Of a stretch of 64,000 bases of DNA, positions 23,737 through 55,973 are shown one piece after another. The position numbers and the translations under genes are program-made. Under the pieces are notes generated by a model. It was not told the origin of the DNA, made no database searches, and saw only the letters and a list, made by a program, of their open reading frames with translations. The stretch is from Azolla caroliniana (lineage: Eukaryota; Plantae; Polypodiophyta). The stretch covers positions 1,240,001 through 1,304,000 of the forward strand of contig JBHGNT010000005.1 in the NCBI GenBank assembly GCA_043228905.1, read 5' to 3'. The stretch's first letter is position 1, and each line of letters starts with the position of its first letter.

Positions 23737-24069
23737 GCCATACATACAATAAACAAAATTAATACATTACAATACAATATGTACATATATACACACATAC
23801 CTATATACACATACATACACATTTACACATATAACACATACATACAATACAATATGTACACACATACATACATACACATGGAATACAAACAATACATACA
23901 TAAACACACACACACATGTGTAGAATATACATACACACATGTACACACATATATGTTGTATGGAACATACATACACACATACCTATATACACATATATAC
24001 ACTTACATACATACACATTTACACATATAACACATACATACAATACAATATGTGCACACATACATACAT

Positions 24070-24106
<37 letters not shown>

Positions 24107-24172: not shown

Positions 24173-24175
24173 ATT

Positions 24176-24895
24176 GTTGAGGATGAGACTGTGATTAAGC
24201 GGAATGTTAAGTGGGATAGCTCAAATGAATTACTTTTGGGTTTTTGTGGGTTGAAGTCATCCAATCATTAATGTGTCTCATCATGTATGATAAAGGTTGG
24301 TGACTCTAATGCTGATTATGAAACCATTGTTAGCTCCTTTAAAGACTATGTGGTTGGACATTATGCTAGGGTGTTAATTGCGAATCCTCTTCACCCTAAA
24401 CTTCCACAATTAGTATTGGTTGTACAATGTACATGTAATTGCTTTGATGCAGATTTTGTAAAATGCCAATGGAATGAAGTGGAAACTTTATGGGAAAAAC
24501 ACCTCTCCACAAGTATTGGGCCAATTGTTGGACATGTATTTGATGGAGATAGTAGGAGAAGAAAGATTATGCTTCAAGTTTACTTAACCCCAAGCATATG
24601 CTTAAGATATAAATTGCCTTGGGATGGTTGGATCTTCATAGGTCAAATGCATAATGATATGGTAAGTTGTCTTCATGATCAAGATTTCATCCATAATCGA
24701 AAGAAACTTGTGAATGCACTAGATAATCCCTCAAGACAATTAGTAATTGGGGATGTATGGATCACATTGAATCATGTGTCTTTGGTATATAATAACTTCT
24801 CTATTGATGCACATGGCTTAAGGGAATGTGATATTACGAGAGAAGATAGGCAAAATTGGGCTGGAGCTCAAAGAATTGCAAGTAGAAATGTAGAA
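24176..24895 (+). pseudogene. P-element/THAP9-like DDE transposase fragment
   Basis: One frame with a single TAA (24269-24271): VEDETVIKRNVKWD..LLGFCG ... GHVFDGDSRRRKIM ... QDFIHNRKKLVN ... DRQNW. This gives first D, second D, a DxxHxxK motif and the insertion-domain region. N- and C-termini are missing. Confidence 0.7.
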
Positions 24896-25887
24896 ACCAA
24901 ATATAAACCTACTGTATTCCAAATATATTTTCTGATTTCTTTACTTCCATGTATATTAAGATTTCTTGCTTTTGTTGTTACATTTTATGATATAGGTCCA
25001 ATGTTGAAGATGGAAACGACATGAAATTTACAGCCTAAAATGAACTTCTTAGGGTTTTCTTTTTATATACTCAGTCTTTATAAGGGTAACCTTTATTGCA
25101 ATAAGTTTTTTAAGTAGATATTCCAATAACAAAATGATTTATTTTATTTCATTTTGATTTGGGTAAGAGTATGTGAATAGATGATGTCTTACATTTCAAA
25201 TGGAAATATGAAGTAGGTTGCCATTTGTTTGATCAATGTGTTTGAGAAAAAATAATATTATGTCTTTATATGAGTCTATATCCATGAAACCAAACATAAT
25301 GTTAATTTGTTAGTAATTTCATTATTGATATGCATTTTGGATTGTTCCATATGTGCTCTTTGAGATGTATGTGTTAAGTTCAAGATTGTTTTATTGTAAA
25401 TTACATTGTTTTTTATCACTCAATGTTCTTCATACGTCTCAATAAACTAAAAACAAAAACTTATATGTGGCTTGTATATGTTATACCTGTAGTGTTTTTG
25501 GGTAATGTTTCCTAATTGTGTGTACATTACTTTGTACTTTACACATTGTGTTTTCAATCTATGTGGCACTTAATGAAACATTTCTAGGAATTTGCATATG
25601 ATGTTTAATGTCGATTCATAATTTTGCGAGTCATCAATTGTAAAGATGGTCATTGATCCCTTCTAGGATCACAACCTATGTGTGCATGTATATTTTATAT
25701 GTAAGGGTATTTAAAATGGGTGGTTATCAAAAAATATATTGGTAATAAGGGGTATTTTTATTAATCTTTTTTCTACAGAAGGGTTACTAAAATAGTAAAA
25801 ACCATACGTATAAGGGGTTTATAAATGATGTCATGAACGCACGTGATACAACCTTCTTATGTATAGTGGAGTCCCCGGGGGTAGCGA

Positions 25888-26339
25888 TACCGTGGGGGAA
25901 CGAGATGAGCCGAGAAGAGTTATTAGCAGCGCGGATAAGGCAACTTGAAAGAAGACCTGAAGATTTAGAAAAAGCGCGAAAGATGATGAAGGCAGGCCGA
26001 GTAAAGAACAAAGTTCGGTTCGACAACACGCATCGACTTCGTCCCAAGAAGATTGAAGAAGGGGATTGGGTTTTAGTTTACGACATCACCCTTGACAATC
26101 AACATAGTACAACAAGGAAGTTCGCAAGAAGATGGTTCGGGCCGTATGTGGTGACAAGTGCCAACGATAATGCCACATACCACCTTACGGAACTAGACGG
26201 ATCAAGGTTGGTCGTACCCATTGCGGGAAAAAGAGTAAAGCTTTTCAAGAAAAGACAAGACAAGGATCCTGACCTCGATTACCTCGACGATGAACATAAT
26301 AGGCCGGATGAAAATGAAGACATGGAGGAATCTAATTGA
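25888..26339 (+). pseudogene. pol: C-terminal remainder of gypsy integrase (GPY/F module, no chromodomain)
   Basis: IPWGNEMSREELLAARIRQL...GDWVLV...KFARRWFGPYVV continues the frame interrupted at 18813. Confidence 0.9.
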
Positions 26340-26398
26340 TCATCGTAGCCGAAATCTCACTTCTTCTCTTCTTGGCACGTACCGAAGGACGTGCGGTT

Positions 26399-26411
26399 TG
26401 GTGGGGGTGGA
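26399..26411 (+). promoter_or_regulatory. Polypurine tract
   Basis: G-rich GGTGGGGGTGGA immediately before the 3' LTR. Confidence 0.75.
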
Positions 26412-27433
26412 TGTCGTGAAGATTTTCGGTAATAGTGTGAAAATCCCATAAAATGTACAAAATCGAGTATGAATCATGTAATACAATAATTGTGAAGATA
26501 ACATTTTTAATATCTAAGTACAAAATGATGGAGGTTTCGAATGCACTTTATTACACGAGAAATGGACAACTAAATGTCAAGATATGAGGGTATAAAGTTT
26601 GTGAAAAGAAAAGAGAAAATTGTGAGATATCCCACATAGGCACGACAAATACGGCTCTCATCATATATAAGGAGGAGCAAAAGATATTATCTTTGTGTCT
26701 ATGTGTGGAGCATAGAGAGTTCAAGGTAACTTGAACTTAGAGTGGAGGTGGCTAGCTACTCGTAAAAGGTTTTGGCCAACCAAAACCGAACCGGCGATGG
26801 AGCCGGTGATCCGACGGCATGCGGCGGCGGCACCGATATCCGGCGTCGGTATCCGGCATCCGGCGGCGGCACCAGTATCCGGCGTCGGCATCCGGCGACG
26901 GTATTCGGCGAACCGACGACTAGATAAAATAAATATATAAGAATATATACATATTTACATATACAAGGAGGGCAAGTATGGATTCAAACCTTGCACCTCC
27001 AAGTTAGGAGTCAAATGGCTTACCATTAAGCCATAATATTTAGTTGAAATTATATTTCTATCATTGTAGTTTTACATGTAAATTCTCATCCATGAGTGCT
27101 AAAATGAGTGACATGGTTAGCATGCACCACATGTAATACTTAAGCGCCAAATGGCAAACATGCAATTTATGCATGTCTTGTACCCTCACATGCATCATAT
27201 GCATGAGAGCATCTATAAAAGAGGGAAGGGGGAGGAGAAAAACATGGTTTTTTTTATGAAAATTAAGAAGGAGAAATTCGTTGTCAAATCAATCGTGTAA
27301 TCTCATCTTCTCTCTTTCCCAATCTATCTTAAGTACTTTCTCGCCAAAGCTTGTATCGACTCTAAATCCTTCTGGTCCAGAACCCCGGCGGTTCCGCCTC
27401 ACGATCCGCGCGTAGTGACGGATCTTCACGACA
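26412..27433 (+). repeat. 3' LTR (1022 bp)
   Basis: Matches 12501-13514. By eye the only differences are two C/T substitutions near the 5' end and an 8-bp indel (~26954). Confidence 0.97.
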
Positions 27434-36300: not shown

Positions 36301-36503
36301 GCATCATCATTAGCCCTAAATTTATTATGCCCCCTGCCCCCACCACCACACACATTTCTTTTACTTCTTCCTCCATTGGTTTGGGTAGAATCAAAGGTTT
36401 AATGAACTCCACACAAAAAAACCCACCACTTCTTGCCGTTTTCCCTCAACTTAAAATCCTGGACCTTCCTTTTTGTGAAGAGCTTTAATCATCTAGCTAC
36501 CTA

Positions 36504-39360
36504 ATGGAAACCATCCATTGTTCATTTGCCTTAATGACCAACAATACCAATATCTCAATGCTTGCTGCCTTACTCTTATTGATCCTTATTCCATTACCTA
36601 CCTCTTCTTCTTCTTCTTCTTCTTCTAAATTTTCCAATTCTTCTTTTAACTCCGACTCTCAATTATACCATGAGTATGCCCTCATACTACTAGAGATTAA
36701 GTCTCTTCTCATTGATCCAACGCACTCCTTGCAAAGTTGGTCTATGGACAAATCTTCTTCAGTTTGCATGGATTGGGTTGGCATAACTTGTACCAATACC
36801 AATTCTTCCTCAGATAATCACCATACCGATCAGGCTATTATCACTAATTCCTCTCTCGACAATGCCCACATGACCGGCTACGATGTGATTACTACCATTA
36901 ATCTCGCCAATAAGAACCTCTCTGGTTCTCTCTCCCCTGCCATTGGCTCTCTCACCTCTCTTCAAGTCCTCAACCTAACCAGCAATTGGCTCTCTGACTC
37001 TCTACCCATTCAACTCATGGATTGCCGGAGCCTACAGAAACTAGATCTTTCCACTAACAACTTCTCTGGTGAGATACCTGTTGGTTTCTCTAAGCTTGCC
37101 AACATAGAGGTAATTGATCTTTGGACTAATTCCTTTGTTGGGTCTATACCTCAGGACATTGTGCTTTGCTCTAATCTCCATTACCTAGACTTGGGTGGTA
37201 GCTACCTTGAGGGTTCAATACCACCTGATATTGGAAACCTCACTAAACTAAGATACCTCACATTGGCTGGTAACTTGCTGAGTGGTTTTATCCCCACATC
37301 TATCAAGCTCTTGTCTCAATTAGAATGGCTGTATTTAGGCTATAATGAACTGAATGGAATCATACCTTATGAAATAGGTGAATTAACTAGGCTTAACCAT
37401 CTTGATCTAGTGCATAATAACCTATCTGGACCCTTCCCTCCTAGTATCACCAACCTAACTGGGTTGCAAAACCTCTTCTTATATGACAACATGATTGAAG
37501 GTCCAATCCCACCGTCTGTATCTAATCTAACCCAGCTTTTGTCTCTAGATTTGAGTAACAACAGGATGGTGGGCACTATCCCTGCAGGGATTTCTAACCT
37601 AAAAAACCTTCAAATCCTCAATCTCTTCTCTAATGGCTTCAATGGGGAGATACCCAATAGCATTGTGAACCTGAATAACTTGCAAGTGTTAGCCCTTTGG
37701 AAGAATTCATTGTACGGTGAGGTGCCAGCAGGGTTAGGTATGAATTCACCCTTAATGGAGGTAGACCTATCTAGCAATCAGTTGACAGGACCTATCCCCC
37801 AAGGTCTGTGTGCATCTAAGGTTCTTAAGAAGCTCATATTATTCACAAATTACATGAATGGACCCATCCCAACAGGTTTATCCCATTGCCATAGCTTGCG
37901 AAGGGTGAGGATACAAGGGAATCTCTTCAATGGGACCTTCCCAAGAGCATTTGGAAGTCTTCCCTTTGTGTATTACTTGGACATTTCTTCTAACAATTTG
38001 AATGGAAATCTGGATGATTTCACTTGGAACATGCCATCCCTCCAAGTCCTCCATCTTCAAAGCAATCACTTCAGGGGGTCTATACCTCCTTCCCTTCTCA
38101 AAACCTCAAAATCCCTTTTCACACTAGACCTCTCCCACAATGCTTTGTCGGGAAGCATCCCTCTGGAGATCGGCTCCTTGTCGGAGCTCAACACATTCAA
38201 TGTTAGTGGGAATGCTATCGAAGGAGAGATGAACGATGGGTTGCTAAAGTGTGTGAAAATGGTGTCTTTAGACCTTAGCAATAACAACCTAAGTGGTCAA
38301 ATCCCGCCACAATTGGCTAACATGAAGATGTTAAGCACGCTGGACATATCGTGTAACAACTTGTCTGGGTCTATACCCCTTGAATTAGGGGGCATGGAGT
38401 CCCTTGTATTTGTTAATGTCTCATTCAATCGTCTATCCGGCAAGGTTCCACTCAATGGTGCCTTTATGAACATTAATGCAAGTGCCACCCAGGGTAATGA
38501 AGGTCTTTGTGGAGGAACCAGCCTTGGTCCTTGCACTGCCAGTGAAGCTACTAATGCGAATGTCATATCTTTGAAGACAAGAATCATTGCAATTCTCCTC
38601 TTGATTTGTCTCTTGTTGGCTATGGCTTGCCTATGCCACCTTATATGGAAGCTCAAGCAAGTAGGTTTCCTCGACGCAACCACCAATATCGTCGGTGCCT
38701 TAACAAAGATGACAGGAAAAGCGAGACGAAGGAAGGCGATTCGAACTAAAAGGTGGGGAGAATGGAGCCTCCAGCTATTCCAACAAGTGAACCCTAGCAT
38801 AGAAGAAATCTTGGAAGCTATAAACAATCAAGAGATTCATCTCTTGGAAAAGAGGCACTCTTCCTCTCGGGGTAGTCATATCATGTACAAGAGCAACACC
38901 CAAGAAGGAGAAACATTTGCAATCATGGAGTTGACACTAACCTATGGCTCTATGAATAACGAGGGGTTTCGTTCCCTCGAGGACGTGCTTCGGATGATGG
39001 GCACATCAACACACCCGAACGTTGTGAACGTATACGGGATATGCTCATGCGTAGCTAGCTCTATAGTGGTGTTTGAAGTGGTAGATGGTATTAGACTCAG
39101 CAGTTTGCTTAATGGTTTCTCATATGATATCGAGCAAGGTGGTGAGCATCACTTGGATTGGGCCAAAAGGCTCGACATTGCTATTGGTATTGCGGAAGCG
39201 TTGGTTCACTTGCATAGCTTGTCCATTATCTATGGATGTGTGTGCTCTTACAACGTGCTCGTGGAATGGAGAACCCTTGGTGTAGTAGCTCGATTGCTCC
39301 CGCCCACCACTTCCGGTACTGCACGGCTTATTGTTCGTCACGATTCGATAAAAGATGAAG
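36504..39360 (+). CDS. LRR receptor-like (pseudo)kinase, SKM1/At2g25790-like, exon 1
   Basis: Signal peptide, LRRNT (CMDWVGITC), ~21 plant LRRs, GNEGLCG cap, TM helix (IIAILLLICLLLAMACLC) and a degenerate kinase. LDLGGSYLEG, WLYLGYNELNGIIPYEIGELTRLNHLDLVHNNL and GAFMNINASA recall At2g25790. Splice donor GAAG|GTAAAC at 39361. Confidence 0.92.
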
Positions 39361-39838
39361 GTAAACAAACAAGCATGCACTGTCCTTTCTTTCTCTGCTT
39401 TTTCTTGTCTTCATTTTTTAAAATAATGGTAGATGAGACTAGGATATGTCCCAGAGGCTCACGTCCAATGGTGTCCAATACCCCTCTATGTTTATTGGAA
39501 AATCTGGAATGGCAAGGGATAAGCCACACAATTGGACTGTACATATATATGCATGGTTGGGTCGTGAATCATGTCTGATTTTATTGGGTGCTTGTACATC
39601 AAAATGACGCACAGAATGCTCAACATTATTGGGTAACTAACTGCAACTAAGTACAAGGGGTAGCAAATTACAACTAGTAAGGTATGTAATGGGGCTGCAG
39701 TCGCCCTTCCTTACATGTGGTGTTAGATGGGGTAGTGGCATTTTGCAGGATGTGTGAGTGAGTCTAAGGCTGCAAGACAAGGTATATTGAATTGTAAATG
39801 AAGAATATTATGCATTTGCTCATAAAGAATGTGTATAG

Positions 39839-43182: not shown

Positions 43183-44430
43183 CACTCAACCAAATCCCTA
43201 AACATGTCACCAAGAAAAATGCTCACAAAAAAGAAAACCCAACTTCCAATGCATCTACCATTTGAAGCATTGTTGTCGTTGCAGTTCATGGATGGAACTA
43301 ACAACAAAGTAAATGCAATCATTACAAAGTGCAAATTTCATTAGATAATTATATGTATATGTTCTCTTAGTAGTTAGACCATATTGTAATTGATGTTAGC
43401 ATAATCAAGCTATTACTACATATTAAAGAACCTACACTAAAATAATCAAGCTCCCTATTTGTATCAGATATACTAATAATTAATTGATTGTTTGTAAGTG
43501 ATATATTTTAAGCATTAAAACGGGTATTTGATTTTGAGAACATGTTGTGGCCTCGAAAAACCCATAGAAAAAGAAGGATGAGTAAGCAAATAATTAGTCA
43601 AATTACACATAAAACTTAGAAAAAAAGGCATCAATGAAGCAGATATAATGAATCAAATAACACACAAAACTTTGAAAAAAAAGGATCAATGAAGCAGATA
43701 TAGCGAATCAAATATGGGTACAACACTAAACTGGGCCGAACTTTTCAACTGCAACTAGACGGCCCCTTATGCAACGGCTGGCGTACATTGGGCATCCCTG
43801 ACGAGGTGCTCATTACCTTTTGGAAGGATCTCTAGCGTCTCCACATGCCGGAAAAGATAAAGCTTTTTTGGTGGCAAATTAGTCATAATGTGGTTCCCGT
43901 TGGCGAATGGCTAGGTAAACGTGGTGGCCCGTTAGGTTGCCCACTTTGCCATTCACCTATTGAGACTTTGACGCATTGTCTGTGGGATGGCCCTCAAGCT
44001 CAAAACGTATGGGATAGAGTGACTCGCCTCCTTGCGGCATGTGAATTGGAAGGAACAACATCGTGGAGTGCTACGGCATGGCTTGATCACTCCGTTGATA
44101 GGTGGACGAACGCCCTCAATGTAGATAGTTGGTGTTACGTATGCATGAGAGGCAAAATCGCCAAGATTCGATTTGAGAGAGGCTTGCAGTCCGCATCCCC
44201 TAGGTTCCCAGACATTTGGATGCTGATCGCAGGATTCACCTTGTGGTATGTATGGAAAGCACGTTGCCTAAAGGTCTTTCAAGATCTGGTGTGGCCCCCG
44301 GAGGAAGTGATAATGGACATATGGTTTGCGCTAATCAGCTGCTTATGAGGGGAATTGGACGAGGTTTGTTGCTATTCCAATGACGTGGTTACGGCCCGTT
44401 TGCGCTTTTGGTAGAAATGGCGGAACACGT

Positions 44431-45295
44431 TGTCGTGAAGATCCATCACTATGTGCGGATCGTGAGGCGGAACCACTGGGGTCTTGGACCGGAAGGATTC
44501 GAAGTTTGCACTAGTTTAGCGAGAAAGTATTTAAGATAGATTGAAAGAGAGAGAGAGAGAGAGAGAGATTAAGATTGAACCCTTGACTTTAGACTTAAGA
44601 AACAAGATACACCATCAATTGGATAACGAATTTTCTTCTTCTTAAATTCTTGAATCATACATAGCCCCTCCTTTTTTCTTTTTTATCCACTCTTTTATAG
44701 ATGCCCCCATGCATATGATGCATGTGGGGTACAAGACATGCATAAAATGCATGATGCATGTTTACCATTTGGCGCTTATGTGTTACATGTGATGCATGAT
44801 AACCATGTCACTCATTTAAGCTCTCATATGAGAATTTTCATGTAAAACTATAATGATAAAAATTATAACTTTAAGGAAATGACTTGGCTTAGTGGTAAGT
44901 ATATTGCTTTCTATCTTGGAGGTGCAAGGTTCAAGTCTTTTGGACCAAATATCTTTAAAACACCATGCACCGCGATCATCCGACCCGACCGATCCATCCA
45001 ATTTGCACCCGTTTGGTCTGGCCCGGTTCGGTCCACATCCCGAGGTCACCAAGTGCCGCATCCTGAGGTCGCCACATAACTTCATACCCACATAACTTGA
45101 CACTTAGATGTCCGTTTGTTATATAACAAAGTACATTCAAAAACTCTTCAAGACCTCCATCTTTTTGTACCAAGATATTAAACTTATTTAAAATAGTATC
45201 TTCACTATTATTGTTTTATATTTCATGAGAAGAACCGCACTCGATTTCGTATGTTCCTCACAAGTTTCACACTATCGTCGAAAATCTTCACGACA
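44431..45295 (-). mobile_element. Solo LTR related to the 12501-27433 family
   Basis: Same TGTCGTGAAGAT/ATCTTCACGACA termini and clear reverse-complement similarity to both ends and the TATA region of 12501-13514. The central part is diverged. Flanks ACGT / ACGC. Confidence 0.92.
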
Positions 45296-45382
45296 ACGCC
45301 TATGGTGGCACAAGGAGGAAGTGGCCCGAGGTGGAACTACCAGCCCCCATGCTGGCTATTTCCAGCTCACTTACCACCCTCC

Positions 45383-45672
45383 TGTCATAACTAGACTCGA
45401 ACCCATAACCTTTTGTTACACGGGTCGAGACTTTACCATTAGGTTATGAGTTGTAATTTGAAGGATATTATTTTCATTTAGGTTTTATTAGGAAATTGAT
45501 GTATATTCCAGATTTCTCTGGAACATTCTAGAAACTTCAGGAGTATTCCTGAAGACACTATAAAAGGAGGCGCAAGGCATTAGTTCGAACCAAATCGGTT
45601 CAACGCCAGTCTTAAGCCTTCTAACTACTGTTGTATATCTTCCGTCATATAATACATATATCTTTCGCATCA

Positions 45673-45718
<46 letters not shown>

Positions 45719-45851
45719 ACTCATTCCTTCTCTCAAAGTTCGACACCTCTCATAGTACTAATCCTTCTCTGTCTTAGTACTATTCCCCAACAATAGTACT
45801 AATCCTTCTTTTAGTACTAATTCCTTCTCTGCCTTAATAGAGTTCCTGACA
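45383..45851 (+). repeat. LTR-A (469 bp)
   Basis: TGTCA...TGACA ends, TATAAAA at 45559-45565, a (CT)n tract and four TAGTACTA repeats in U5. Confidence 0.97.
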
Positions 45852-45853
45852 GT

Positions 45854-45865
45854 TTGAACCGATTT
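45854..45865 (+). promoter_or_regulatory. Self-priming-type primer binding site
   Basis: TTGAACCGATTT lacks the TGG of a tRNA PBS and is the exact complement of AAATCGGTTCAA at 45592-45603 in the LTR. A second copy lies on the minus strand at 48453-48464. Confidence 0.85.
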
Positions 45866-47221
45866 GACCTTGGCTGGGTCCATAGATATGCCTTCTGAGG
45901 AGATGACATAGCCGAGAAACTCCACTTGGTTGCACCCGAAACTACATTTCTCTAACTTTGCATACAGACCATGTTCTCGAAGTCGTTTTAGTACTAATAG
46001 TACATGAGAATCATGTTCTTCTTGGGTCTTTGAATAAACCAGTAGATCATCCAAATAGATGATCAAAAAATCATCCAAGAGGTCTCGAAATATATCATTC
46101 GCCATGTGCTGGAAGACTGCCGGCGCATTAGTGAGTCCGAACGGCATGACCGTATACTCGAAGTGCCCATATCTGGTGCGAAACGCGGTCTTCCATTCAT
46201 CTCCTGGTCGGATCCGTACGAGGTTATAGGCTCCTCGTAAGTCGATCTTCGTGAAGAACCTGGCACCGTTGATCCGTTCTAAAAGACTTGAGATAAGGGG
46301 AAGAGCATACCTATTTCTTACTGTGACCTTATTCAAGCCACGGTAATCTACAACGAGTCGAAGCGAGCCATCTTTTTTCTTGACGAAGAAAATGGGTGCG
46401 CCGGCTGGAGATTTCGAATGCCGAATGAAACCGTTCTCCAAATTCTCCTCTATATAGGCTCGAAGGACTTCTAGCTCGGTTGGTGACAAATTGTAGATCG
46501 GCCCCCATGGCGGCTCTTTTCCCGGTTGTAAGTCGATGGCGCAGTCGTACGGCCGATGATGAGGAAGTGTGTTGGCTTGTACTTTATCGAACACATCAGC
46601 ATACTGACGATACTTCTCGGGAAGTTGAACGGTGGACTCCTCTTTGGTGGTGCTGGAGGGTTGTACTGATATTGCAAAGAGAAACATTTCCTCCTTGCGC
46701 CCTTCCTCACGCAACTGACGTAGCGAAATGGTTGCAACCTTCTGGGTAGATCCTTGGGTTTGTCGCAACCGGATTTCCCTTGTCCTCCAATCTATGTCTG
46801 GGTCATGTAACTCGAACCATGGTAATCCTAAAACTATGGGATGTTCTGGAATACTAATAATATTAAATGATACTACACATGTTAAGTTATCTAGGACAAT
46901 ATTAACGGGTTCCGACTCTTCTATGATATTACCAGAAGCAATGGGACGACCATCAATGACTACTACTGAGGCTGGACATGGGAGCTTTCTGAGAGATATC
47001 TGATGAGCTCGGGCAAAATTCCTATCCATGAAGCAAGAATTAGCTCCGGAATCTAGAAGGGCTAAGGTATGTACTGGAGGGGTACTTTTAGTACTAACTG
47101 CTACTTGGACTACGAACACATCACTAACTTGCTTAGAGGGAATGGAACCACTAATGGGCTGCACAGATCTAGGGCTGTCCAACCAAACGGCTCCTATTTT
47201 GGCTGGACTTAGTCGTTTAAC
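45863..47221 (-). pseudogene. pol: Pol copy 1 (protease + RT), truncated at the inversion junction
   Basis: ALLDSGANSCF, DLRGAY, MPFGL, YLDD. Homology stops at ISMDPAKVK; the remaining ORF tail is read-through into antisense LTR-A. Confidence 0.93.
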
Positions 47222-48378
47222 TCTTCTTCTAATTGGCTAAGGACATCAAATTTGTTTGCGAGATTCGGACTATTAGTACTATTAGGACTATTATGACTAT
47301 GAGGATTATCAGAGATTCCTACTGACATAGACTCGGGTTTAGTATAGTCAGAACTAACAATGACTTGGTTTACCTGCCTTCTTGGTCTATGGGGACAGTT
47401 TATCGCGATATGCCCTGGTCCACCGCAATAAAGGCATAATCGGTTTGTTCGGCGTCGTTGCTTTTCCTCCTCCGATAGCGGCCCACGACGACGTGTAGTG
47501 TCAATTTCCATTGGAGTTGGAGTACTTACTGGAGGCGCATTATGTGACTCCCTTTGAAAAGGTTTCGCTACCATTGAGGCATAGGTAGGCTCGGATCTTG
47601 CCCTCGGCATCTGAAATTGTCGTTCCGAACGTCGCTCGAAGAGGCGGTTGTCACATCTGACCGCTCGACTGATTGCTTCTGTTAATGATTTTGGCTCTTC
47701 AGGGAAAGTCAAGAGTAAATCCTTGACATCGTTGCGTAGACCATAGCGGAACTGCTCCATCAATGCTTGATCATCCCAGGGGATATCGGCGGCGAGTAGG
47801 CGGAAATCTGCAGCATATGCGGAGGCTGGACGGTCACCTTGGCGTAATCGCCGGATTTTGTTGATTGCAGTCCTTATGCTGTCAGTATCTCCAAAACATG
47901 CTTTAAACTCACTTATGAATTCTTCAAAATTATTTAGTACTGGAGATTCCTTTTCTAGTAGCGGAGCGAACCATGCTAATGCTGAGCCATTTAACAACGT
48001 GCCTACTAAACCCACTCGTGATGCATCGGTGGGATATCGGGACGGATGCATTTGAATAACTAACCGTACCTGGTTAAGAAACCCTCTAAACTGCGATCGC
48101 GTTCCATCGAACTTCGTGGGAAGGCCAATCTTGGGTTCTTTATGAATCCCTTGTGCTCCGTGCCCTTGTTGTTGCATTGCTACGATGGTTGCTTCGAGTT
48201 GTTGCACGCGTAACGCAAGTTCCCCATGCTGTTGTTGCGTTTGCTGCTTTTCTAAGGAAATTTGCTGAAGATCCCCCAACAAGCGTTGATTTTCTTGTTC
48301 CAAAGCATGAAACTTCTCTTTCAAGCATTGAAATTCCGAGAAAACGGATTGATACTCTTCAGCGCTAACGGTGGCCAT
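47209..48378 (-). CDS. gag: Intact Gag (389 aa) with CCHC zinc knuckle
   Basis: N-terminal coiled coil, PTKFDGTRSQFRGFLNQ (Tf1/sushi/PEG10-type capsid), LRQG..SAYAADF, PMEID and CLYCGGPGHIAINC. Confidence 0.95.
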   Translation of the reverse strand: MATVSAEEYQSVFSEFQCLKEKFHALEQENQRLLGDLQQISLEKQQTQQQHGELALRVQQLEATIVAMQQQGHGAQGIHKEPKIGLPTKFDGTRSQFRGFLNQVRLVIQMHPSRYPTDASRVGLVGTLLNGSALAWFAPLLEKESPVLNNFEEFISEFKACFGDTDSIRTAINKIRRLRQGDRPASAYAADFRLLAADIPWDDQALMEQFRYGLRNDVKDLLLTFPEEPKSLTEAISRAVRCDNRLFERRSERQFQMPRARSEPTYASMVAKPFQRESHNAPPVSTPTPMEIDTTRRRGPLSEEEKQRRRTNRLCLYCGGPGHIAINCPHRPRRQVNQVIVSSDYTKPESMSVGISDNPHSHNSPNSTNSPNLANKFDVLSQLEEELND

Positions 48379-48529
48379 GGGATGAAGGAAAAGGGAAATA
48401 AGAGACTAGTAGGAAAGGAGAGAGACAGAAGGAAGAGGGAGACTAGTAGGGGAAATCGGTTCAAACTGTCAGGAACTCTATTAAGGCAGAGAAGGAATTA
48501 GTACTAAAAGTACCCCTCCAGTACATAAC

Positions 48530-48662
48530 TGTCAGGAACTCTATTAAGGCAGAGAAGGAATTAGTACTAAAAGAAGGATTAGTACTATTGTTGGGGAATA
48601 GTACTAAGACAGAGAAGGATTAGTACTATGAGAGGTGTCGAACTTTGAGAGAAGGAATGAGT

Positions 48663-48706
<44 letters not shown>

Positions 48707-48996
48707 TGATGCGAAAGATATATGTATTATATGACGGAAGATATACAACAGTAGTTAGAAGGCTTAAGACTGGCGTTGAACCGATTTGGTTCGAACTAAT
48801 GCCTTGCGCCTCCTTTTATAGTGTCTTCAGGAATACTCCTGAAGTTTCTAGAATGTTCCAGAGAAATCTGGAATATACATCAATTTCCTAATAAAACCTA
48901 AATGAAAATAATATCCTTCAAATTACAACTCATAACCTAATGGTAAAGTCTCGACCCGTGTAACAAAAGGTTATGGGTTGGAGTCTAGTTATGACA
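48530..48996 (-). repeat. LTR-B, internal and inverted (467 bp)
   Basis: Reverse complement of 54135-54601 with one substitution seen (48980). Preceded on the minus strand by the PPT (48997-49009). Confidence 0.97.
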
Positions 48997-51900
48997 CTAT
49001 CCCCCCTTTAAAACGACGAGTTTCACGAGTCGTTTTGGATTGAGGACCCGGTTTCTCGGGATATCGTCGATGGAAGTCTTCTAGAAGAGCACGAGCATTG
49101 GTCACATTCTCGATCGGTTCCCAAGTACGCTCGCTGGGACTATATCCTAGCCAATCGACTAGATAGTAGAGCTTGTTGCGAACAATCTTGGAATCGAGGA
49201 TGGCAGCGACCTCATACTCAGGTCCATCTTCGAGCTCGATAGGAGGTGGAGGTTGTATAGTACGTCCTGGGATAGTGCTCTCGTGATAGGGTTCGAGGAG
49301 AGAACTATGAAACACCGGGTGTATCCGAAGTTGCGGAGGTAGCTCGAGACGAAAAGCGACATCATTAATCTTCCCGATAATACGGAAAGGACCTAATCGT
49401 CGATAATCCAACTTCTCACATGGGCGAGTAGTCTTGATGTGTCGTCGTAGCAGCCACACCCGATCTCCAATGTTAAAACTGGATGGAAGTCGATGACGAT
49501 CTGCGTAGTCCTTGTGTGATTGTTGAGCTTGCTGGAGTTGAGTAGATAAATCCGCTTGTATCTTGCGTAACCGCTCCAAACGATCCTCCGCGCAAGGATT
49601 TGTGGACACTTCTGGGGTTTCAAGGACACACCACCGGGGATGATATCCCGTATAAGCGTAGAATGGCGTGACTTTAGTCGATGCGTGGATAGCGTTATTA
49701 TAGGCAAATTCGGCGAACGGAAGAATATCTGCCCAGTCATTCTGATGATAGTTGAGAAAGCACCGCAGATACTGCTCCAGTGTTTGATTTGTTCGTTCGG
49801 CTTGACCGTCGGTTTGTGGGTGGTAGCCGGAGGAGAGGTTACAAGTGACCTTCAGCATTTTAAAAAGGTGCTTCCAGAATTTTGACACAAACTGGGGTCC
49901 ACGATCGCTGATGATATTATCAGGGAGTCCATGATGCCGACATACTTCCCGCATGACAATTTCGGCGGTGTCTTCACTAGATATTTCTTTAGTACATGGT
50001 AAGAAATGAGCCATCTTCGTATATCGATCCACCACTGTGAGAATCGCACTGAATCCCTTAGAGACTGGAAGATCTGTAATGAAGTCAAGAGCAATGGATT
50101 GCCATGGCTTGCTTGGAATTGGTAATGGTTCTAATAAACCATATGGATGATGTCTTGGCATTTTCGCTCTGCAGCATGTATCGCAAGTCCGAACAAAATC
50201 TTCGACAAATTGTCGCATACGGGGCCACCAGAATGATCGTTGTACTAAATCTAATGTTTTAGTACTACCAAAATGTCCTGCTGTATATGTGTCCTGGCAG
50301 TTTTGTACTACGCGAAGGCGGCAAGAACCATTAGGAACATACAAAAGTTCTTTAAAGAAGAGTAATCCATCACAGTATTTGAATTGCCGATAATCCGTAC
50401 CTGGTGATTGTGATTGTGAACATGACGCTCGAGAGGGGTCAATTTGTGCTAGTATAGCTTGGGCGAAAGCGTCAGTCTTCAAGTCCTCACGTATAGTATT
50501 GGTAATGTCGGAATCCACGGGCATGTCAAAGATCTGTGCTGCTTGCAGTCGTGCTGGACCCAAGATTACTTGCTTCTGGTTATCGAAAGCTGGCTCACCG
50601 GGACGTGGTGTTAGATACGAACGCCGTGATAATGCATCTGCCTTCCCTTGGTGCTTCCCCGGACGATATGTAATTTTGAAGTCGAAGCGTGTGAGGAAAT
50701 GGGCCCACCGAGCTTGACGTCGATTCAGTACACGAGCATCTTGAAAGTAGGCAAGGTTCTTGTGGTCACTGAATACAGTGACCTGATGAGGAGATCCCTC
50801 CAGGAAATGCCTCCATTGCATAAAAGAATCAACTATTGCTAATAGCTCTTTATCATGAATTTCGTAGTTGATTTCGGCGGCGTCAAACTTACGGGAGTGG
50901 AAAGCCACAGGATGTAGCTTCTCGTCGTTACCCTGTTGTGACAGAATGCTCCCCAATGCGAAATCCGATGCATCAGCTTCGATAATGAATGGTTTTTCCG
51001 GATCCACATGACCTAAAATTGGAGCTGATGTAAACGCCTTCTTAAGACTCTCGAAAGCCATGTCCGTCTCTTTAGACCAAATGAATGATTGTCCCTTCCT
51101 GGTGAGCTGTGTGAGAGGCAGCACAATTTTTGAGTAATTTTGTATGAACTTCCGGTAGAAATTTGCAAAGCCTAGGAAGCATTGCACATCCCGCACCGAA
51201 CGCGGAGTGTGCCATTCTATCACCGTTTTGACCTTGGCTGGGTCCATAGATATGCCTTCTGAGGAGATGACATAGCCGAGAAACTCCACTTGGTTGCACC
51301 CGAAACTACATTTCTCTAACTTTGCATACAGACCATGTTCTCGAAGTCGTTTTAGTACTAATAGTACATGAGAATCATGTTCTTCTTGGGTCTTTGAATA
51401 AACCAGTAGATCATCCAAATAGATGATCAAAAAATCATCCAAGAGGTCTCGAAATATATCATTCGCCATGTGCTGGAAGACTGCCGGCGCATTAGTGAGT
51501 CCGAACGGCATGACCGTATACTCGAAGTGCCCATATCTGGTGCGAAACGCGGTCTTCCATTCATCTCCTGGTCGGATCCGTACGAGGTTATAGGCTCCTC
51601 GTAAGTCGATCTTCGTGAAGAACCTGGCACCGTTGATCCGTTCTAAAAGACTTGAGATAAGGGGAAGAGCATACCTATTTCTTACTGTGACCTTATTCAA
51701 GCCACGGTAATCTACAACGAGTCGAAGCGAGCCATCTTTTTTCTTGACGAAGAAAATGGGTGCGCCGGCTGGAGATTTCGAATGCCGAATGAAACCGTTC
51801 TCCAAATTCTCCTCTATATAGGCTCGAAGGACTTCTAGCTCGGTTGGTGACAAATTGTAGATCGGCCCCCATGGCGGCTCTTTTCCCGGTTGTAAGTCGA

Positions 51901-53302
51901 TGGCGCAGTCGTACGGCCGATGATGAGGAAGTGTGTTGGCTTGTACTTTATCGAACACATCAGCATACTGACGATACTTCTCGGGAAGTTGAACGGTGGA
52001 CTCCTCTTTGGTGGTGCTGGAGGGTTGTACTGATATTGCAAAGAGAAACATTTCCTCCTTGCGCCCTTCCTCACGCAACTGACGTAGCGAAATGGTTGCA
52101 ACCTTCTGGGTAGATCCTTGGGTTTGTCGCAACCGGATTTCCCTTGTCCTCCAATCTATGTCTGGGTCATGTAACTCGAACCATGGTAATCCTAAAACTA
52201 TGGGATGTTCTGGAATACTAATAATATTAAATGATACTACACATGTTAAGTTATCTAGGACAATATTAACGGGTTCCGACTCTTCTATGATATTACCAGA
52301 AGCAATGGGACGACCATCAATGACTACTACTGAGGCTGGACATGGGAGCTTTCTGAGAGATATCTGATGAGCTCGGGCAAAATTCCTATCCATGAAGCAA
52401 GAATTAGCTCCGGAATCTAGAAGGGCTAAGGTATGTACTGGAGGGGTACTTACTGGAGGCGCATTATGTGACTCCCTTTGAAAAGGTTTCGCTACCATTG
52501 AGGCATAGGTAGGCTCGGATCTTGCCCTCGGCATCTGAAATTGTCGTTCCGAACGTCGCTCGAAGAGGCGGTTGTCACATCTGACCGCTCGACTGATTGC
52601 TTCTGTTAATGATTTTGGCTCTTCAGGGAAAGTCAAGAGTAAATCCTTGACATCGTTGCGTAGACCATAGCGGAACTGCTCCATCAATGCTTGATCATCC
52701 CAGGGGATATCGGCGGCGAGTAGGCGGAAATCTGCAGCATATGCGGAGGCTGGACGGTCACCTTGGCGTAATCGCCGGATTTTGTTGATTGCAGTCCTTA
52801 TGCTGTCAGTATCTCCAAAACATGCTTTAAACTCACTTATGAATTCTTCAAAATTATTTAGTACTGGAGATTCCTTTTCTAGTAGCGGAGCGAACCATGC
52901 TAATGCTGAGCCATTTAACAACGTGCCTACTAAACCCACTCGTGATGCATCGGTGGGATATCGGGACGGATGCATTTGAATAACTAACCGTACCTGGTTA
53001 AGAAACCCTCTAAACTGCGATCGCGTTCCATCGAACTTCGTGGGAAGGCCAATCTTGGGTTCTTTATGAATCCCTTGTGCTCCGTGCCCTTGTTGTTGCA
53101 TTGCTACGATGGTTGCTTCGAGTTGTTGCACGCGTAACGCAAGTTCCCCATGCTGTTGTTGCGTTTGCTGCTTTTCTAAGGAAATTTGCTGAAGATCCCC
53201 CAACAAGCGTTGATTTTCTTGTTCCAAAGCATGAAACTTCTCTTTCAAGCATTGAAATTCCGAGAAAACGGATTGATACTCTTCAGCGCTAACGGTGGCC
53301 AT
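48989..53302 (-). CDS. pol: Fused Gag(delta)-Pol polyprotein, 1437 aa: capsid, PR, RT, RNase H, integrase, chromodomain
   Basis: Uninterrupted ORF with DSGA, YLDD, ADAS...E...DHKNL...AD, DDE, GPF and YEVAAILDS...YLVDWLGY...TWEP. Lacks 440 bp present in copy 1 (47082-47521). Confidence 0.95.
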   Translation of the reverse strand: MATVSAEEYQSVFSEFQCLKEKFHALEQENQRLLGDLQQISLEKQQTQQQHGELALRVQQLEATIVAMQQQGHGAQGIHKEPKIGLPTKFDGTRSQFRGFLNQVRLVIQMHPSRYPTDASRVGLVGTLLNGSALAWFAPLLEKESPVLNNFEEFISEFKACFGDTDSIRTAINKIRRLRQGDRPASAYAADFRLLAADIPWDDQALMEQFRYGLRNDVKDLLLTFPEEPKSLTEAISRAVRCDNRLFERRSERQFQMPRARSEPTYASMVAKPFQRESHNAPPVSTPPVHTLALLDSGANSCFMDRNFARAHQISLRKLPCPASVVVIDGRPIASGNIIEESEPVNIVLDNLTCVVSFNIISIPEHPIVLGLPWFELHDPDIDWRTREIRLRQTQGSTQKVATISLRQLREEGRKEEMFLFAISVQPSSTTKEESTVQLPEKYRQYADVFDKVQANTLPHHRPYDCAIDLQPGKEPPWGPIYNLSPTELEVLRAYIEENLENGFIRHSKSPAGAPIFFVKKKDGSLRLVVDYRGLNKVTVRNRYALPLISSLLERINGARFFTKIDLRGAYNLVRIRPGDEWKTAFRTRYGHFEYTVMPFGLTNAPAVFQHMANDIFRDLLDDFLIIYLDDLLVYSKTQEEHDSHVLLVLKRLREHGLYAKLEKCSFGCNQVEFLGYVISSEGISMDPAKVKTVIEWHTPRSVRDVQCFLGFANFYRKFIQNYSKIVLPLTQLTRKGQSFIWSKETDMAFESLKKAFTSAPILGHVDPEKPFIIEADASDFALGSILSQQGNDEKLHPVAFHSRKFDAAEINYEIHDKELLAIVDSFMQWRHFLEGSPHQVTVFSDHKNLAYFQDARVLNRRQARWAHFLTRFDFKITYRPGKHQGKADALSRRSYLTPRPGEPAFDNQKQVILGPARLQAAQIFDMPVDSDITNTIREDLKTDAFAQAILAQIDPSRASCSQSQSPGTDYRQFKYCDGLLFFKELLYVPNGSCRLRVVQNCQDTYTAGHFGSTKTLDLVQRSFWWPRMRQFVEDFVRTCDTCCRAKMPRHHPYGLLEPLPIPSKPWQSIALDFITDLPVSKGFSAILTVVDRYTKMAHFLPCTKEISSEDTAEIVMREVCRHHGLPDNIISDRGPQFVSKFWKHLFKMLKVTCNLSSGYHPQTDGQAERTNQTLEQYLRCFLNYHQNDWADILPFAEFAYNNAIHASTKVTPFYAYTGYHPRWCVLETPEVSTNPCAEDRLERLRKIQADLSTQLQQAQQSHKDYADRHRLPSSFNIGDRVWLLRRHIKTTRPCEKLDYRRLGPFRIIGKINDVAFRLELPPQLRIHPVFHSSLLEPYHESTIPGRTIQPPPPIELEDGPEYEVAAILDSKIVRNKLYYLVDWLGYSPSERTWEPIENVTNARALLEDFHRRYPEKPGPQSKTTRETRRFKGGIVS

Positions 53303-53377
53303 GGGATGAAGGAAAAGGGAAATAAGAGACTAGTAGGAAAGGAGAGAGACAGAAGGAAGAGGGAGACTAGTAGGACA

Positions 53378-54142
53378 AACTATCATCAGAATGACTGGGC
53401 AGATATTCTTCCGTTCGCCGAATTTGCCTATAATAACGCTATCCACGCATCGACTAAAGTCACGCCATTCTACGCTTATACGGGATATCATCCCCGGTGG
53501 TGTGTCCTTGAAACCCCAGAAGTGTCCACAAATCCTTGCGCTGAGGATCGTTTGGAGCGGTTACGCAAGATACAAGCGGATTTATCTACTCAACTCCAGC
53601 AAGCTCAACAATCACACAAGGACTACGCAGATCGTCATCGACTTCCATCCAGTTTTAACATTGGAGATCGGGTGTGGCTGCTACGACGACACATCAAGAC
53701 TACTCGCCCATGTGAGAAGTTAGATTATCGACGATTAGGTCCTTTCCGTATTATCGGGAAGATTAATGATGTCGCTTTTCGTCTCGAGCTACCTCCGCAA
53801 CTTCGGATACACCCGGTGTTTCATAGTTCTCTCCTCGAACCCTATCACGAGAGCACTATCCCAGGACGTACTATACAACCTCCACCTCCTATCGAGCTCG
53901 AAGATGGACCTGAGTATGAGGTCGCTGCCATCCTCGATTCCAAGATTGTTCGCAACAAGCTCTACTATCTAGTCGATTGGCTAGGATATAGTCCCAGCGA
54001 GCGTACTTGGGAACCGATCGAGAATGTGACCAATGCTCGTGCTCTTCTAGAAGACTTCCATCGACGATATCCCGAGAAACCGGGTCCTCAATCCAAAACG
54101 ACTCGTGAAACTCGTCGTTTTAAAGGGGGGATAGTGTCATAA
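53378..54142 (+). pseudogene. pol: Second, sense-oriented copy of the integrase C-terminus + chromodomain
   Basis: Reverse complement of 48989-49753 with two synonymous differences seen (~53542, ~53722). Followed by PPT AAAGGGGGGATAG (54122-54134). Confidence 0.93.
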
Positions 54143-54424
54143 CTAGACTCGAACCCATAACCTTTTGTTACACGGGTCGAGACTTTACCATTAGGTTATG
54201 AGTTGTAATTTGAAGGATATTATTTTCATTTAGGTTTTATTAGGAAATTGATGTATATTCCAGATTTCTCTGGAACATTCTAGAAACTTCAGGAGTATTC
54301 CTGAAGACACTATAAAAGGAGGCGCAAGGCATTAGTTCGAACCAAATCGGTTCAACGCCAGTCTTAAGCCTTCTAACTACTGTTGTATATCTTCCGTCAT
54401 ATAATACATATATCTTTCGCATCA

Positions 54425-54468
<44 letters not shown>

Positions 54469-54601
54469 ACTCATTCCTTCTCTCAAAGTTCGACACCTCT
54501 CATAGTACTAATCCTTCTCTGTCTTAGTACTATTCCCCAACAATAGTACTAATCCTTCTTTTAGTACTAATTCCTTCTCTGCCTTAATAGAGTTCCTGAC
54601 A
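54135..54601 (+). repeat. LTR-C (467 bp)
   Basis: Appears identical to LTR-A apart from one CT unit. Confidence 0.97.
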
Positions 54602-55973
54602 CCTCCCTTCGATGTCGACCCCAAGAGGTGTCTCGTACTAGCCATCACTGAAGTGCACCGTTTTTAGCTATAGGTACTTACATTAAGTAGTTAGTCCGAA
54701 AGGCGATGTAACTAGTCTCCTTTTCTTGAACCTGATCGGAGGGAGATTCCTTGTTCTATGTATAAGCCTCCTTGTACAGTCTCTTTGTAATAATCCTTGA
54801 ACTTGATCGGAAAGTAGCTTCATTTTGGAAAAAAAAAACACACTCACAAAACTTTGAAAAAATGGTTGATTACCAATATAGTTTAAAAAAAAAAGAAGTG
54901 AAGCTCATTTTTGTGAATTCCAAAATATGCTTCAAACGACCTTTGTGGTTCATAAGAATGATAAAGGAAGACATGAGTTCAAGCCTTGGCCTCACTTGTC
55001 TAACATGATGGAATCCTTTGTAATTAATAATGCTAACAATAAAATGGTTCTTGTATTTTCTTGTGAAAAAGAAGAAGAAGAAAGAAATGAGGGTAGGCAT
55101 TGCATTGGATAATTTCGTTATGTAAACAACATGAAGTCAAGGAGACAATGGATGGAGACTTCGCAACACTTGAGGTAATGCACATTATATTTGAATAGAA
55201 ACAACATTTGTGTAGGAAATAGAGGATATAGAAATATTTGATATTTTTTCATCGTAACAAGGCGGTGACAAGGTATCCCTCTCATGGACATAGATGAACA
55301 ATTTTTTATTGAAACAAAAGCTAGCATTTTTTTTTCCCAAAAAAAAGAAGCATGTTGTGCATTACTTAGATAGAAAAGAAATTTGAGGACATAAAACAAT
55401 GTCCTGGAGATGTAAATCAATTTTAATATTGAATGGACTCACTCCCTAGCATCTAACAATAGAAAAGAAAAGATTTTAAAGTCGTAAAGTAAACAAAGGA
55501 ATGGAAATACAAATCAAATTTGATTGTGGATGCAATGGGAAAGTAGCTCCTTTTTTGGAAAATTATGATTGTGGATGGACTCACTCCCCAACTAAATAAA
55601 GAATGGGGAAATTCAGGAATTTAGACCAAACTAAAGAAGCAAGAAGCGAAAGAAAGTGGGCAATTTATAAAGTATACCAATAACAAAGTTTCTACAATAC
55701 AAAAACAAAATTACATGGTTCACACAATTTTAGTAATGTTGTATTCATGTACTTTTTCTTTTCTTAAATGACACTCTCTCTTTTTTGAAAAAATATCCTC
55801 CATTGGTATTGAAATTACAGTGGCCAGAGGCAATATACAAAAAACCAGTCCAATAGTCCAATCTTTCTAAGTTAAGATAATTACATTTCACACACCCTCG
55901 AGTTGTATTCTCTCATAAAGTTTGAGAGCTTCATCTCCATTTCCATGCTCAACATATCATATCCAGTAAATCA

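What the first reader, a model, noticed from the sequence alone, without database searches (positions are those of the whole stretch)
45383..54601. One insertion, three LTRs, inverted core: a chromovirus locus built to make antisense and hairpin RNA (candidate retrotransposon-killer locus)
Seen: a single TSD (CCTCC) brackets LTR-A(+) and PBS, then an inverted head-to-tail dimer (45863-53374, reading leader-gag/pol-PPT-LTR-B-PBS-gag-PR-RT on the minus strand), then IN 3' end, PPT and LTR-C(+). Arms 48530-49753 and 53378-54601 form a 1224-bp near-perfect inverted repeat. LTR-A and LTR-B are also inverted relative to each other and their promoters converge. Known: rearranged transposon copies yielding hairpin or antisense RNA can silence their family in trans (maize Mu killer, Drosophila flamenco). 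Inference: transcription from LTR-A would give RNA antisense to nearly the whole element plus a >1-kb duplex. Because LTR-PBS...PPT-LTR cis signals are intact, the unit might also be copied by helper elements, giving a mobile silencer.
Basis: partly seen in the sequence, partly recalled or inferred. Interest (0 to 1): 0.85.

Follow-up and report, generated by a model that had tools for sequence, protein, structure and literature searches.

The report
Three-LTR retrotransposon with flipped core
A young 9.2-kb insertion, likely in a fern, holds about one and a half copies of a jumping gene with its whole middle flipped; it was likely stitched together by template jumps while the element was being copied, and it is predicted to be able to make double-stranded RNA, though any silencing of its family is untested.

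Summary
The structure is in the sequence as described: one 5-bp target duplication, three near-identical LTRs (A+, B-, C+), an inverted dimeric core and a 1,224-bp inverted repeat. The element is a self-priming Tf1/Sushi-group (Tcn1-like) chromovirus: its PBS pairs with its own predicted 5' end, not a tRNA. Three of the five junctions fall at natural ends of reverse-transcription intermediates: exactly at the PBS end, 2 nt past it, and 2-3 nt past an LTR end. One junction is a 431-bp deletion that removes the zinc knuckle. Best reading: a chimeric cDNA made by repeated template jumps, then integrated once. This is an inverted variant of published three-LTR template-switch insertions, not a locus 'built' to silence. 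Double-stranded RNA is plausible, most easily a 263-bp LTR stem from LTR-B's transcript; the 1.2-kb hairpin needs 8-9 kb of read-through. No reads confirm the junctions, and no RNA, small-RNA or methylation data were available, so the killer role (about 12%) and mobility (about 3%) are untested. This scan has noted similar single-TSD inverted chimeras on other DNA, one in this genome.

The parts
45378..45382 (+). left target-site duplication CCTCC
   Evidence: empty-site relative at window 240-290 has one copy
45383..45851 (+). LTR-A, 469 bp; TATA-like box near 45559; predicted self-primer / transcription start 45592-45603
45852..45865 (+). 2-nt spacer plus 12-nt self-priming PBS; junction J1 falls exactly at its 3' end
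45866..48466 (-). core copy 1: PBS, leader, whole gag with CCHC knuckle (48378-47209), PR, RT polymerase domain, broken before RNase H at a PBS-like 7/8 site
48467..48510 (-). duplicated 3' end of U5; junction J2b with 13-nt microhomology at 48498-48510
48511..48527 (+). 17-nt insert copied from the opposite strand of the PR start (source 47068-47097), the same spot as the J3 acceptor
48527..48529 (-). junction J2a: LTR-B end followed by only the 2-nt spacer and at most 1 nt of PBS
48530..48996 (-). LTR-B, 467 bp, one substitution (LTR position 17) against LTR-A and LTR-C; predicted start 48787
48997..53374 (-). core copy 2: leader (from 2 nt past the PBS), gag-PR-RT-RH-IN-chromodomain in one open frame of 1,436 codons, PPT at 48997-49012; no promoter upstream in its own orientation
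52446..52451 (-). junction J3: 431-bp deletion (equivalent to 47088-47518) with 6-nt microhomology; removes the zinc knuckle and the gag/pol overlap
53375..53377 (+). junction J4: 3 nt matching neither donor, between inverted leader and integrase
53378..54134 (+). integrase 3' part, SH3-like domain, chromodomain, PPT (54119-54134); two synonymous substitutions against the copy-2 arm
54135..54601 (+). LTR-C, 467 bp; same as LTR-A except one TC repeat unit
54602..54606 (+). right target-site duplication CCTCC

Best explanation
This is one young insertion of a chromovirus whose PBS pairs with its own LTR, and its inverted three-LTR layout likely arose before integration, when a single growing cDNA strand likely jumped five times between reverse-transcription intermediates of two co-packaged family members. 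Inferred path, read along the bottom strand: (1) normal minus-strand synthesis copies LTR-C, PPT and the integrase end; (2) J4, jump with 3 added nt onto the 3' end of a second minus-strand DNA that stopped at the PBS/leader border; (3) copy it in sense, skipping 431 nt at a 6-nt microhomology (J3), through LTR-B to that DNA's 5' end at the spacer (J2a); (4) a 17-nt detour onto the opposite strand at the PR start, then back to U5 by 13-nt microhomology (J2b); (5) copy U5, PBS, gag, PR, RT; (6) J1, mis-anneal at a PBS-like site in RT to the 3' end of a plus-strand strong-stop DNA and finish LTR-A. The product has normal TG...CA ends, so integrase would insert it once and leave one TSD. Shown: layout, junction positions, microhomologies, TSD, self-primer pairing. 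Inferred: the order of jumps and two templates. The copy is probably unable to replicate on its own. It is predicted to give some double-stranded RNA (a 263-bp R-U5 stem, convergent LTR-A/LTR-B transcripts); family-wide silencing is untested.
For: J1 ends exactly at the last base of the 12-nt PBS that pairs with LTR positions 210-221, about 30 nt after the TATA-like box (fold z = -7.2, 0 of 200 shuffles; same pairing in relative L003, z = -6.3, 0 of 100). About 50% of Tf1 cDNAs in particles keep a full single-stranded PBS copy at the 3' end, and Tf1 RT adds untemplated nt (PMC11042837, passages, citing Atwood-Moore et al., not read). The J1 acceptor matches the PBS complement at 7 of 8 nt, one of only 2 such sites in the 4,378-nt sense core. 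J2a lies 2-3 nt past an LTR end and J4 2 nt past the PBS end; two independent breakpoints both falling that close to such landmarks has a rough chance of 1e-5 even allowing four landmarks each (windows chosen after seeing the data). One TSD and outer LTRs with no substitution are the published marks of a single reverse-transcription and integration event (PMC1950507, whole text). All 3 substitutions fit a two-template split (A = C differs from B; arm B differs from arm C; 0 differences in 2,151 nt of duplicated gag and PR-RT); chance about 0.02 if mutations fell at random. Both integrase differences are synonymous. Relatives have the ordinary layout: 7 of 7 loci show PBS followed by a pyrimidine-rich leader and 4 of 7 reach and keep the J3 segment.
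Against: No intermediate was observed; the path is one of several that give the same product. Five jumps in one round is more than in published template-switch complexes, which have direct-orientation cores (PMC1950507). J1 and J4 lie 2 nt apart on the element map, which a single post-insertion break at the PBS would also explain. Three-LTR tandems also form by Rad52 single-strand annealing at resident copies (PMC11042837, passages). LTR-A has one more TC unit than B and C, which the two-template split does not predict (slippage or sequencing error). Both arms share an allele at 49719 that most laid contig depth does not carry, so the two templates would be very close kin and the 3 substitutions could be later mutations. 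The junctions have no independent read support.
Confidence: 0.65

Rival explanations
1. Rearrangement after insertion: a normal element or a three-LTR tandem sat here first, then a break at the PBS was repaired by inversion and template switching (possibly using free cDNA), losing 1,479 nt.
For: J1 and J4 map 2 nt apart at the PBS, as one break would give. Tandems sharing one LTR form readily by single-strand annealing in Tf1/Tf2 (PMC11042837, passages). Microhomology and short templated inserts are also marks of DNA repair (general knowledge).
Against: It needs at least two separate events within a very short time (0 substitutions in 2,618 duplicated nt). It gives no reason for the break to be exactly at the PBS end, for J2a to sit at the LTR spacer, or for the J1 acceptor to mimic the PBS.
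Confidence: 0.2
2. Killer locus: the LTRs drive hairpin and antisense RNA that is diced into siRNA and silences the family in trans.
For: The antisense core covers the whole internal region. A transcript from LTR-B runs 2.7 kb in sense with no AATAAA on its strand and then enters antisense LTR-A, closing a 263-bp plus 58-bp stem. Mu killer shows that an inverted duplicate can do this (PMC2563033, passages). An antisense nested EVADE copy was proposed, not tested, as such a trigger (PMC11624286, passages).
Against: Loops are 2.6-3.6 kb, unlike the perfect 2.4-kb Mu killer hairpin. The top strand has 5 AATAAA hexamers, the first at 46033, before any duplex forms. The only evident promoters are the family's own LTRs; the nearest upstream host gene found lies about 5 kb away.
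Confidence: 0.12
3. Assembly chimera from collapsed or fold-back reads of a very repetitive family.
For: The family has many near-identical copies (contigs at 99-100% identity along the whole element in 4 of 4 runs), which is hard on assemblers.
Against: A correct TSD verified against an empty-site relative, five junctions with microhomologies or added bases, junctions at biologically meaningful ends, and arms that differ by synonymous changes are not what collapse or fold-back reads produce.
Confidence: 0.07
4. Antisense nested insertion of one copy into another, or an autointegration inversion circle, followed by deletions.
For: Both are documented sources of inverted LTR pieces (PMC11624286; PMC7197481, passages).
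Against: There is no inner TSD and only one inner LTR, with family sequence on both its sides; no junction joins a bare CA end to internal sequence, and J2a keeps the 2-nt spacer.
Confidence: 0.05
5. Mobile silencer: the whole unit is packaged and copied by helper elements.
For: A transcript from LTR-A would keep self-primer, PBS (13-bp pairing), PPT and R.
Against: It lacks sense leader and gag, where packaging signals usually lie (general knowledge); it would be about 9 kb, cross 5 AATAAA hexamers and fold into long duplexes.
Confidence: 0.03

Closest known systems
Template-switch complex LTR insertions (Sabot and Schulman 2007, PMC1950507; whole text read)
   Same: Three LTRs, one TSD, near-identical outer LTRs, origin proposed from two co-packaged RNAs.
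   Different: Their two cores are complete and in direct orientation. Here the core dimer and the inner LTR are inverted, one unit lacks 1,479 nt, the other 431 nt, and the junctions sit at PBS and LTR ends.
Tf1/Sushi-group chromoviruses, plant Tcn1 clade (PMC6317226 and PMC2864245, passages; Tf1 cDNA ends in PMC11042837, passages)
   Same: Domain order, chromodomain, self-priming PBS, about 5.8-kb unit with 467-bp LTRs, grouping with fungal and vertebrate elements.
   Different: Host is likely a fern, where those papers report no Tcn1 elements; no named Tcn1 reference was in my tree.
Maize Mu killer (PMC2563033, passages; original papers not held)
   Same: A rearranged copy with inverted duplicated transposon sequence able in principle to form a hairpin.
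   Different: Mu killer is a DNA-transposon derivative with a shown 2.4-kb perfect hairpin, siRNAs and heritable silencing. Here loops are kilobases long and nothing functional is shown.
Antisense nested EVADE insertion in Arabidopsis (PMC11624286, passages)
   Same: Opposed LTRs 2-3 kb apart, predicted LTR hairpins and convergent transcription, proposed as a silencing trigger for an LTR element.
   Different: That is two insertions with four LTRs; this is one insertion with three. Its role was not tested there either.
Autointegration inversion circles in plant virus-like particles (PMC7197481, passages)
   Same: Inverted rearranged cDNA made inside particles.
   Different: Those are circular dead ends joined at processed LTR ends; this product kept two free normal ends and integrated.

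Membership tests
Chromovirus, Tf1/Sushi group (Tcn1-like) | Ty3/gypsy order PR-RT-RH-IN with C-terminal chromodomain | tested here: met
   Pfam: Ty3_capsid, Asp protease (below cut-off in copy 2, RVP_2 above it in copy 1), RVT_1, RT_RNaseH, Integrase_H2C2, rve, SH3_Tf2-1, Chromo 3.9e-14
Chromovirus, Tf1/Sushi group (Tcn1-like) | Chromodomain with aromatic cage | tested here: met
   Tyr, Trp and Tyr at the expected places in the translation; cage positions recalled, feature cited from PMC6317226
Chromovirus, Tf1/Sushi group (Tcn1-like) | Self-priming PBS complementary to the 5' end of R | tested here: met
   12-nt match about 30 nt after the TATA-like box. In relatives a site with 0-2 mismatches was found in 4 of 7 loci; L004, L005 and L007 gave none and do not align over that part of the LTR. 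Transcription start not measured.
Chromovirus, Tf1/Sushi group (Tcn1-like) | RT-RH groups with fungal and vertebrate elements, apart from seed-plant chromoviruses | tested here: met
   31-row tree: window in a 26-row set with all named fungal and vertebrate rows (100/100), apart from 3 seed-plant and 2 algal rows; midpoint root; 30 of 120 hits chosen by hand
Tcn1 clade in the strict sense | Groups with named Tcn1 elements (Cryptococcus Tcn1, SM-Tcn1, moss elements) | not tested
   No named Tcn1 reference was among the hits
Template-switch complex insertion (PMC1950507) | One flanking TSD | tested here: met
Template-switch complex insertion (PMC1950507) | Near-identical outer LTRs and an internal LTR | tested here: met
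   A and C differ only by one TC unit; B internal
Template-switch complex insertion (PMC1950507) | Two complete cores in direct orientation | tested here: not met
   Core and inner LTR inverted; both units incomplete
Mu killer-type silencer | Inverted duplication of part of the element | tested here: met
Mu killer-type silencer | Long perfect hairpin transcript that is made | not testable with these tools
   No RNA run listed as holder; predicted stems have 2.6-3.6-kb loops
Mu killer-type silencer | siRNAs and heritable silencing of the family in trans | not testable with these tools
   Needs small-RNA, methylation and genetic data
flamenco-type piRNA cluster | Long single-strand cluster of many transposon families feeding the Piwi pathway | tested here: not met
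   One family, 9.2 kb; plant host; absence of Piwi in plants and the definition are recalled
Antisense nested insertion | Inner element with two LTRs and its own TSD | tested here: not met

The most novel reading that the evidence does not exclude
Self-priming retrotransposons leave sticky single-stranded PBS ends on their cDNA, so a burst of copying throws off, in one step, integration-competent inverted-core products. This locus is one, and it acts as a natural killer of an LTR retrotransposon family: a transposition burst manufactures its own off-switch.
Probability: 0.12. Interest if true: 0.8.

Novelty: new variant of a known kind. Interest (0 to 1): 0.38.

Why it matters
How silencing of a newly active LTR retrotransposon starts is open in plants (PMC11624286 lists hairpin-forming rearranged copies as one untested trigger). 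This locus is a very young, base-resolved candidate whose junctions record natural ends of self-primed reverse transcription, and it gives junction-specific markers for RNA, small-RNA and presence/absence tests. If it does nothing, it remains a clear fossil of a copying accident and a sequence-level sign of self-priming in a likely fern.

Tried and rejected
No whole genome is held, so other copies of the junctions with other TSDs could not be sought. Sequencing runs: 24 listed, 20 hold part of the stretch, best share 0.65, all kept as contigs; no RNA holder listed. Contigs laid on 45000-48575 (X1, X2, X3, X5; 4 of 24 runs): 15 of 23 joints shown, none is J3; 5 of the 8 hidden can be identified from table 5c and are not J3, 3 remain unseen. 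Contigs laid on 48400-53374 at 98% (X1, X2, X3, X7), chosen so that J1 and J4 would show as opposite-strand joints: 1 joint in all, caused by the duplicated ends of my stretch; no J1 or J4; LTR-B's allele at 48980 not seen in 4 of 4 runs. Contigs drop rare variants and these plants may not carry the insertion, so this is inconclusive and counted neither for nor against. What the contigs do show is the ordinary form: the undeleted sequence at J3 in 4 of 4 runs and a contig bridging the RT site of J1 (X2 record 12). A contig near J4 (X7 record 26) passes the site by 29 letters, under the 31-letter rule. Contig depths (about 300 to 10,000 against 16-87 for one-off joints) are not a copy number. 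A third, leader-side duplex of the Tf1 'pretzel' was sought: the native leader pairs only weakly with R-U5 (-3.4 and -5.7 kcal/mol) and none appears in L003, so its loss is no argument against mobility. J3 as a spliced intron: no placement gives GT...AG (sequence). Conservation of the PBS in L001-L007 is forced by my search pattern and is not evidence. No tRNA gene in the window. Look-up of earlier findings by sequence gave nothing. Ten paper searches listed no paper describing a single-TSD three-LTR insertion with an inverted core or a proven LTR-retrotransposon killer locus; I saw most hits only as listings, the library lacks most subscription journals, and supplements were not opened. Three primary papers were not held.
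Full report
Observation. It has three LTRs with TG...CA ends (A+, B-, C+), one TSD CCTCC, an inverted core, and a 1,224-bp inverted repeat at 99.76%. A relative of the repeat into which it inserted lies at window 30-344; it matches both flanks continuously and has the 5-mer once. LTR-A and LTR-C differ only by one TC unit. LTR-B has one substitution, the two integrase arms differ at two synonymous sites, and the duplicated gag and PR-RT stretches are identical. No substitution in 2,618 duplicated nt gives an upper age of roughly 44,000-115,000 years at recalled plant rates of 1.3e-8 to 5e-9, not measured for this lineage.

The element. The domains are capsid, zinc knuckle, protease, RT, RNase H, integrase, SH3-like and chromodomain. 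The unit length works out at about 5,768 bp (coordinates only). RT-RH groups with fungal and vertebrate elements and apart from seed-plant rows (30 of the 120 hits, picked by hand). The best named hits over RT-RH are fungal (64%) against 41-45% for seed plants. The sequence after the LTR is not a tRNA site: 12 nt starting 2 nt after the LTR are complementary to LTR positions 210-221, about 30 nt past a TATA-like box. The predicted 5' RNA folds on this pairing (z = -7.2), as does relative L003 (z = -6.3). Self-priming marks the Tf1/Sushi group and plant Tcn1 (PMC6317226, passages; bioRxiv 2022.12.06.519325, passages). A receptor-kinase gene at 36489-39575 has its best named hits in Adiantum (49%) and Ceratopteris (44%), so the host is likely a fern. 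The family has many near-identical copies in the laid runs.

Junctions. J1 (45865): LTR-A plus spacer plus PBS ends on the last PBS base and continues as antisense RT. The acceptor matches the PBS complement at 7 of 8 nt, one of 2 such sites in 4,378 nt. J2b (48498-48510): 13-nt microhomology between U5 and the opposite strand of the PR start. J2a (48527-48529): after a 17-nt insert, LTR-B begins with only the spacer and at most one PBS base. J3 (52446-52451): 431-bp deletion with 6-nt microhomology; its acceptor is the same spot that donated the J2 insert, so these events were probably coupled. J4 (53374-53378): inverted leader starting 2 nt past the PBS, 3 unassigned nt, then integrase. Relatives keep the ordinary order: PBS then leader in 7 of 7 loci, the J3 segment in the 4 of 7 that reach it, and the undeleted J3 sequence in 4 of 4 runs.

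Mechanism. The end of the PBS copy is where plus-strand strong-stop DNA ends; the PBS/leader border is near where a minus strand ends; the LTR spacer is where a minus strand's DNA begins (general reverse-transcription scheme: PMC5371799, passages; application to this element inferred). For Tf1, about half of particle cDNAs keep a single-stranded PBS copy at the 3' end and RT adds untemplated bases (PMC11042837, passages). Read on the bottom strand, the locus fits one nascent strand that starts normally, jumps onto the 3' end of a second minus strand (J4), copies it to its 5' end (J3, J2a), detours 17 nt, re-enters at U5 (J2b), and at a PBS look-alike in RT anneals to a plus-strand strong-stop end (J1) to finish LTR-A. 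That predicts LTR-A equal to LTR-C, LTR-B and its arm from a second template, and identical gag and PR-RT duplicates. All 3 substitutions fit (chance about 0.02); the extra TC unit in LTR-A does not. Two independent breakpoints landing on such landmarks has a rough, post hoc chance of 1e-5. One TSD with matching outer LTRs is the published signature of template-switch complexes (PMC1950507, whole text), though those are not inverted. I give this 0.65, rearrangement after insertion 0.2, assembly error 0.07, nesting or autointegration 0.05.

Function. Predicted duplexes: 263 bp (R-U5 of LTR-A with LTR-B, loop 2,672), 58 bp, 30 bp, and 1,224 bp (loop 3,624). The last needs an 8-9-kb transcript from LTR-A, whose strand has AATAAA at 46033, 47427, 48890, 50133 and 51397; plant signals are loose, so this is only a caution. 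LTR-B's transcript is the easier source: it is sense and free of AATAAA for 2.7 kb, enters antisense LTR-A, closes the 263-bp stem, and meets an AATAAA near 45484-45489. It could also encode whole Gag and a Pol cut before RNase H. Copy 2 has a long open frame but no zinc knuckle and no promoter in its orientation. Some double-stranded RNA is about an even bet. A killer effect needs lasting transcription from promoters that the siRNAs would target; Mu killer has a shown perfect 2.4-kb hairpin (PMC2563033, passages), and the closest LTR case, an antisense nested EVADE copy, was not tested (PMC11624286, passages). I give killer function 0.12 and mobility 0.03.

Limits. Supplements of the cited papers were not opened; those of PMC6317226 may list fern elements or primer types that bear on the clade claim.

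Novelty. My reading was written before consulting earlier notes. The scan has noted similar single-TSD inverted chimeras in other genomes and one scrambled chromovirus in this genome (unchecked notes), and one note led me to PMC1950507. Ten paper searches listed no identical structure. Verdict: real in the assembly, a new variant of a known kind of copying accident, with an untested but testable silencing potential. Interest 0.38.

Noticed in passing
window 45383-54601 and loci L001-L007: A self-priming Tf1/Sushi-group chromovirus family, with diverged relatives at 75-95% DNA identity, in a likely fern. PMC2864245 (passages) found no Tcn1-like clones in ferns by PCR and PMC6317226 lists Tcn1 only for mosses and club-mosses. 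Later surveys (PMC8282616, PMC13469084) were seen only as listings.
   Followed up: partly
window 47209-47236 (minus strand): pol overlaps the end of gag in the -1 frame, and the last gag codons hold G-TTA-AAC in the phase of a -1 slippery site (motif recalled from arteriviruses). Candidate ribosomal frameshift.
   Followed up: no
window 45750-45825 and equivalents in LTR-B and LTR-C: U5 holds four AGTACT palindromes that form two hairpins in the predicted 5' RNA; the same hexamer lies at or beside both J3 donors and J2b, so it may favour template jumps.
   Followed up: partly
window 12501-27433: A second Ty3/gypsy element, LTRs 1,014 and 1,022 bp at 99%, tRNA-type PBS, carrying about 5 kb of AT-rich simple repeats (19000-24200). 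Before its 3' LTR lies a small hairpin and a G/T-rich tract rather than a clean purine tract; earlier notes on this genome describe a PPT-less family. Flanking 5-mers do not match exactly.
   Followed up: partly
window 30-344 (minus) and 45301-45382 / 54602-54838: The target is an older repeat, 84-93% like the copy at the window start; a fragment like the neighbouring element's LTR lies at 44428-44931 and a LINE zf-RVT fragment at 43836-44345.
   Followed up: partly
window 36489-39575: LRR receptor-like kinase gene on the plus strand, about 5 kb upstream of LTR-A; best named hits in ferns.
   Followed up: partly
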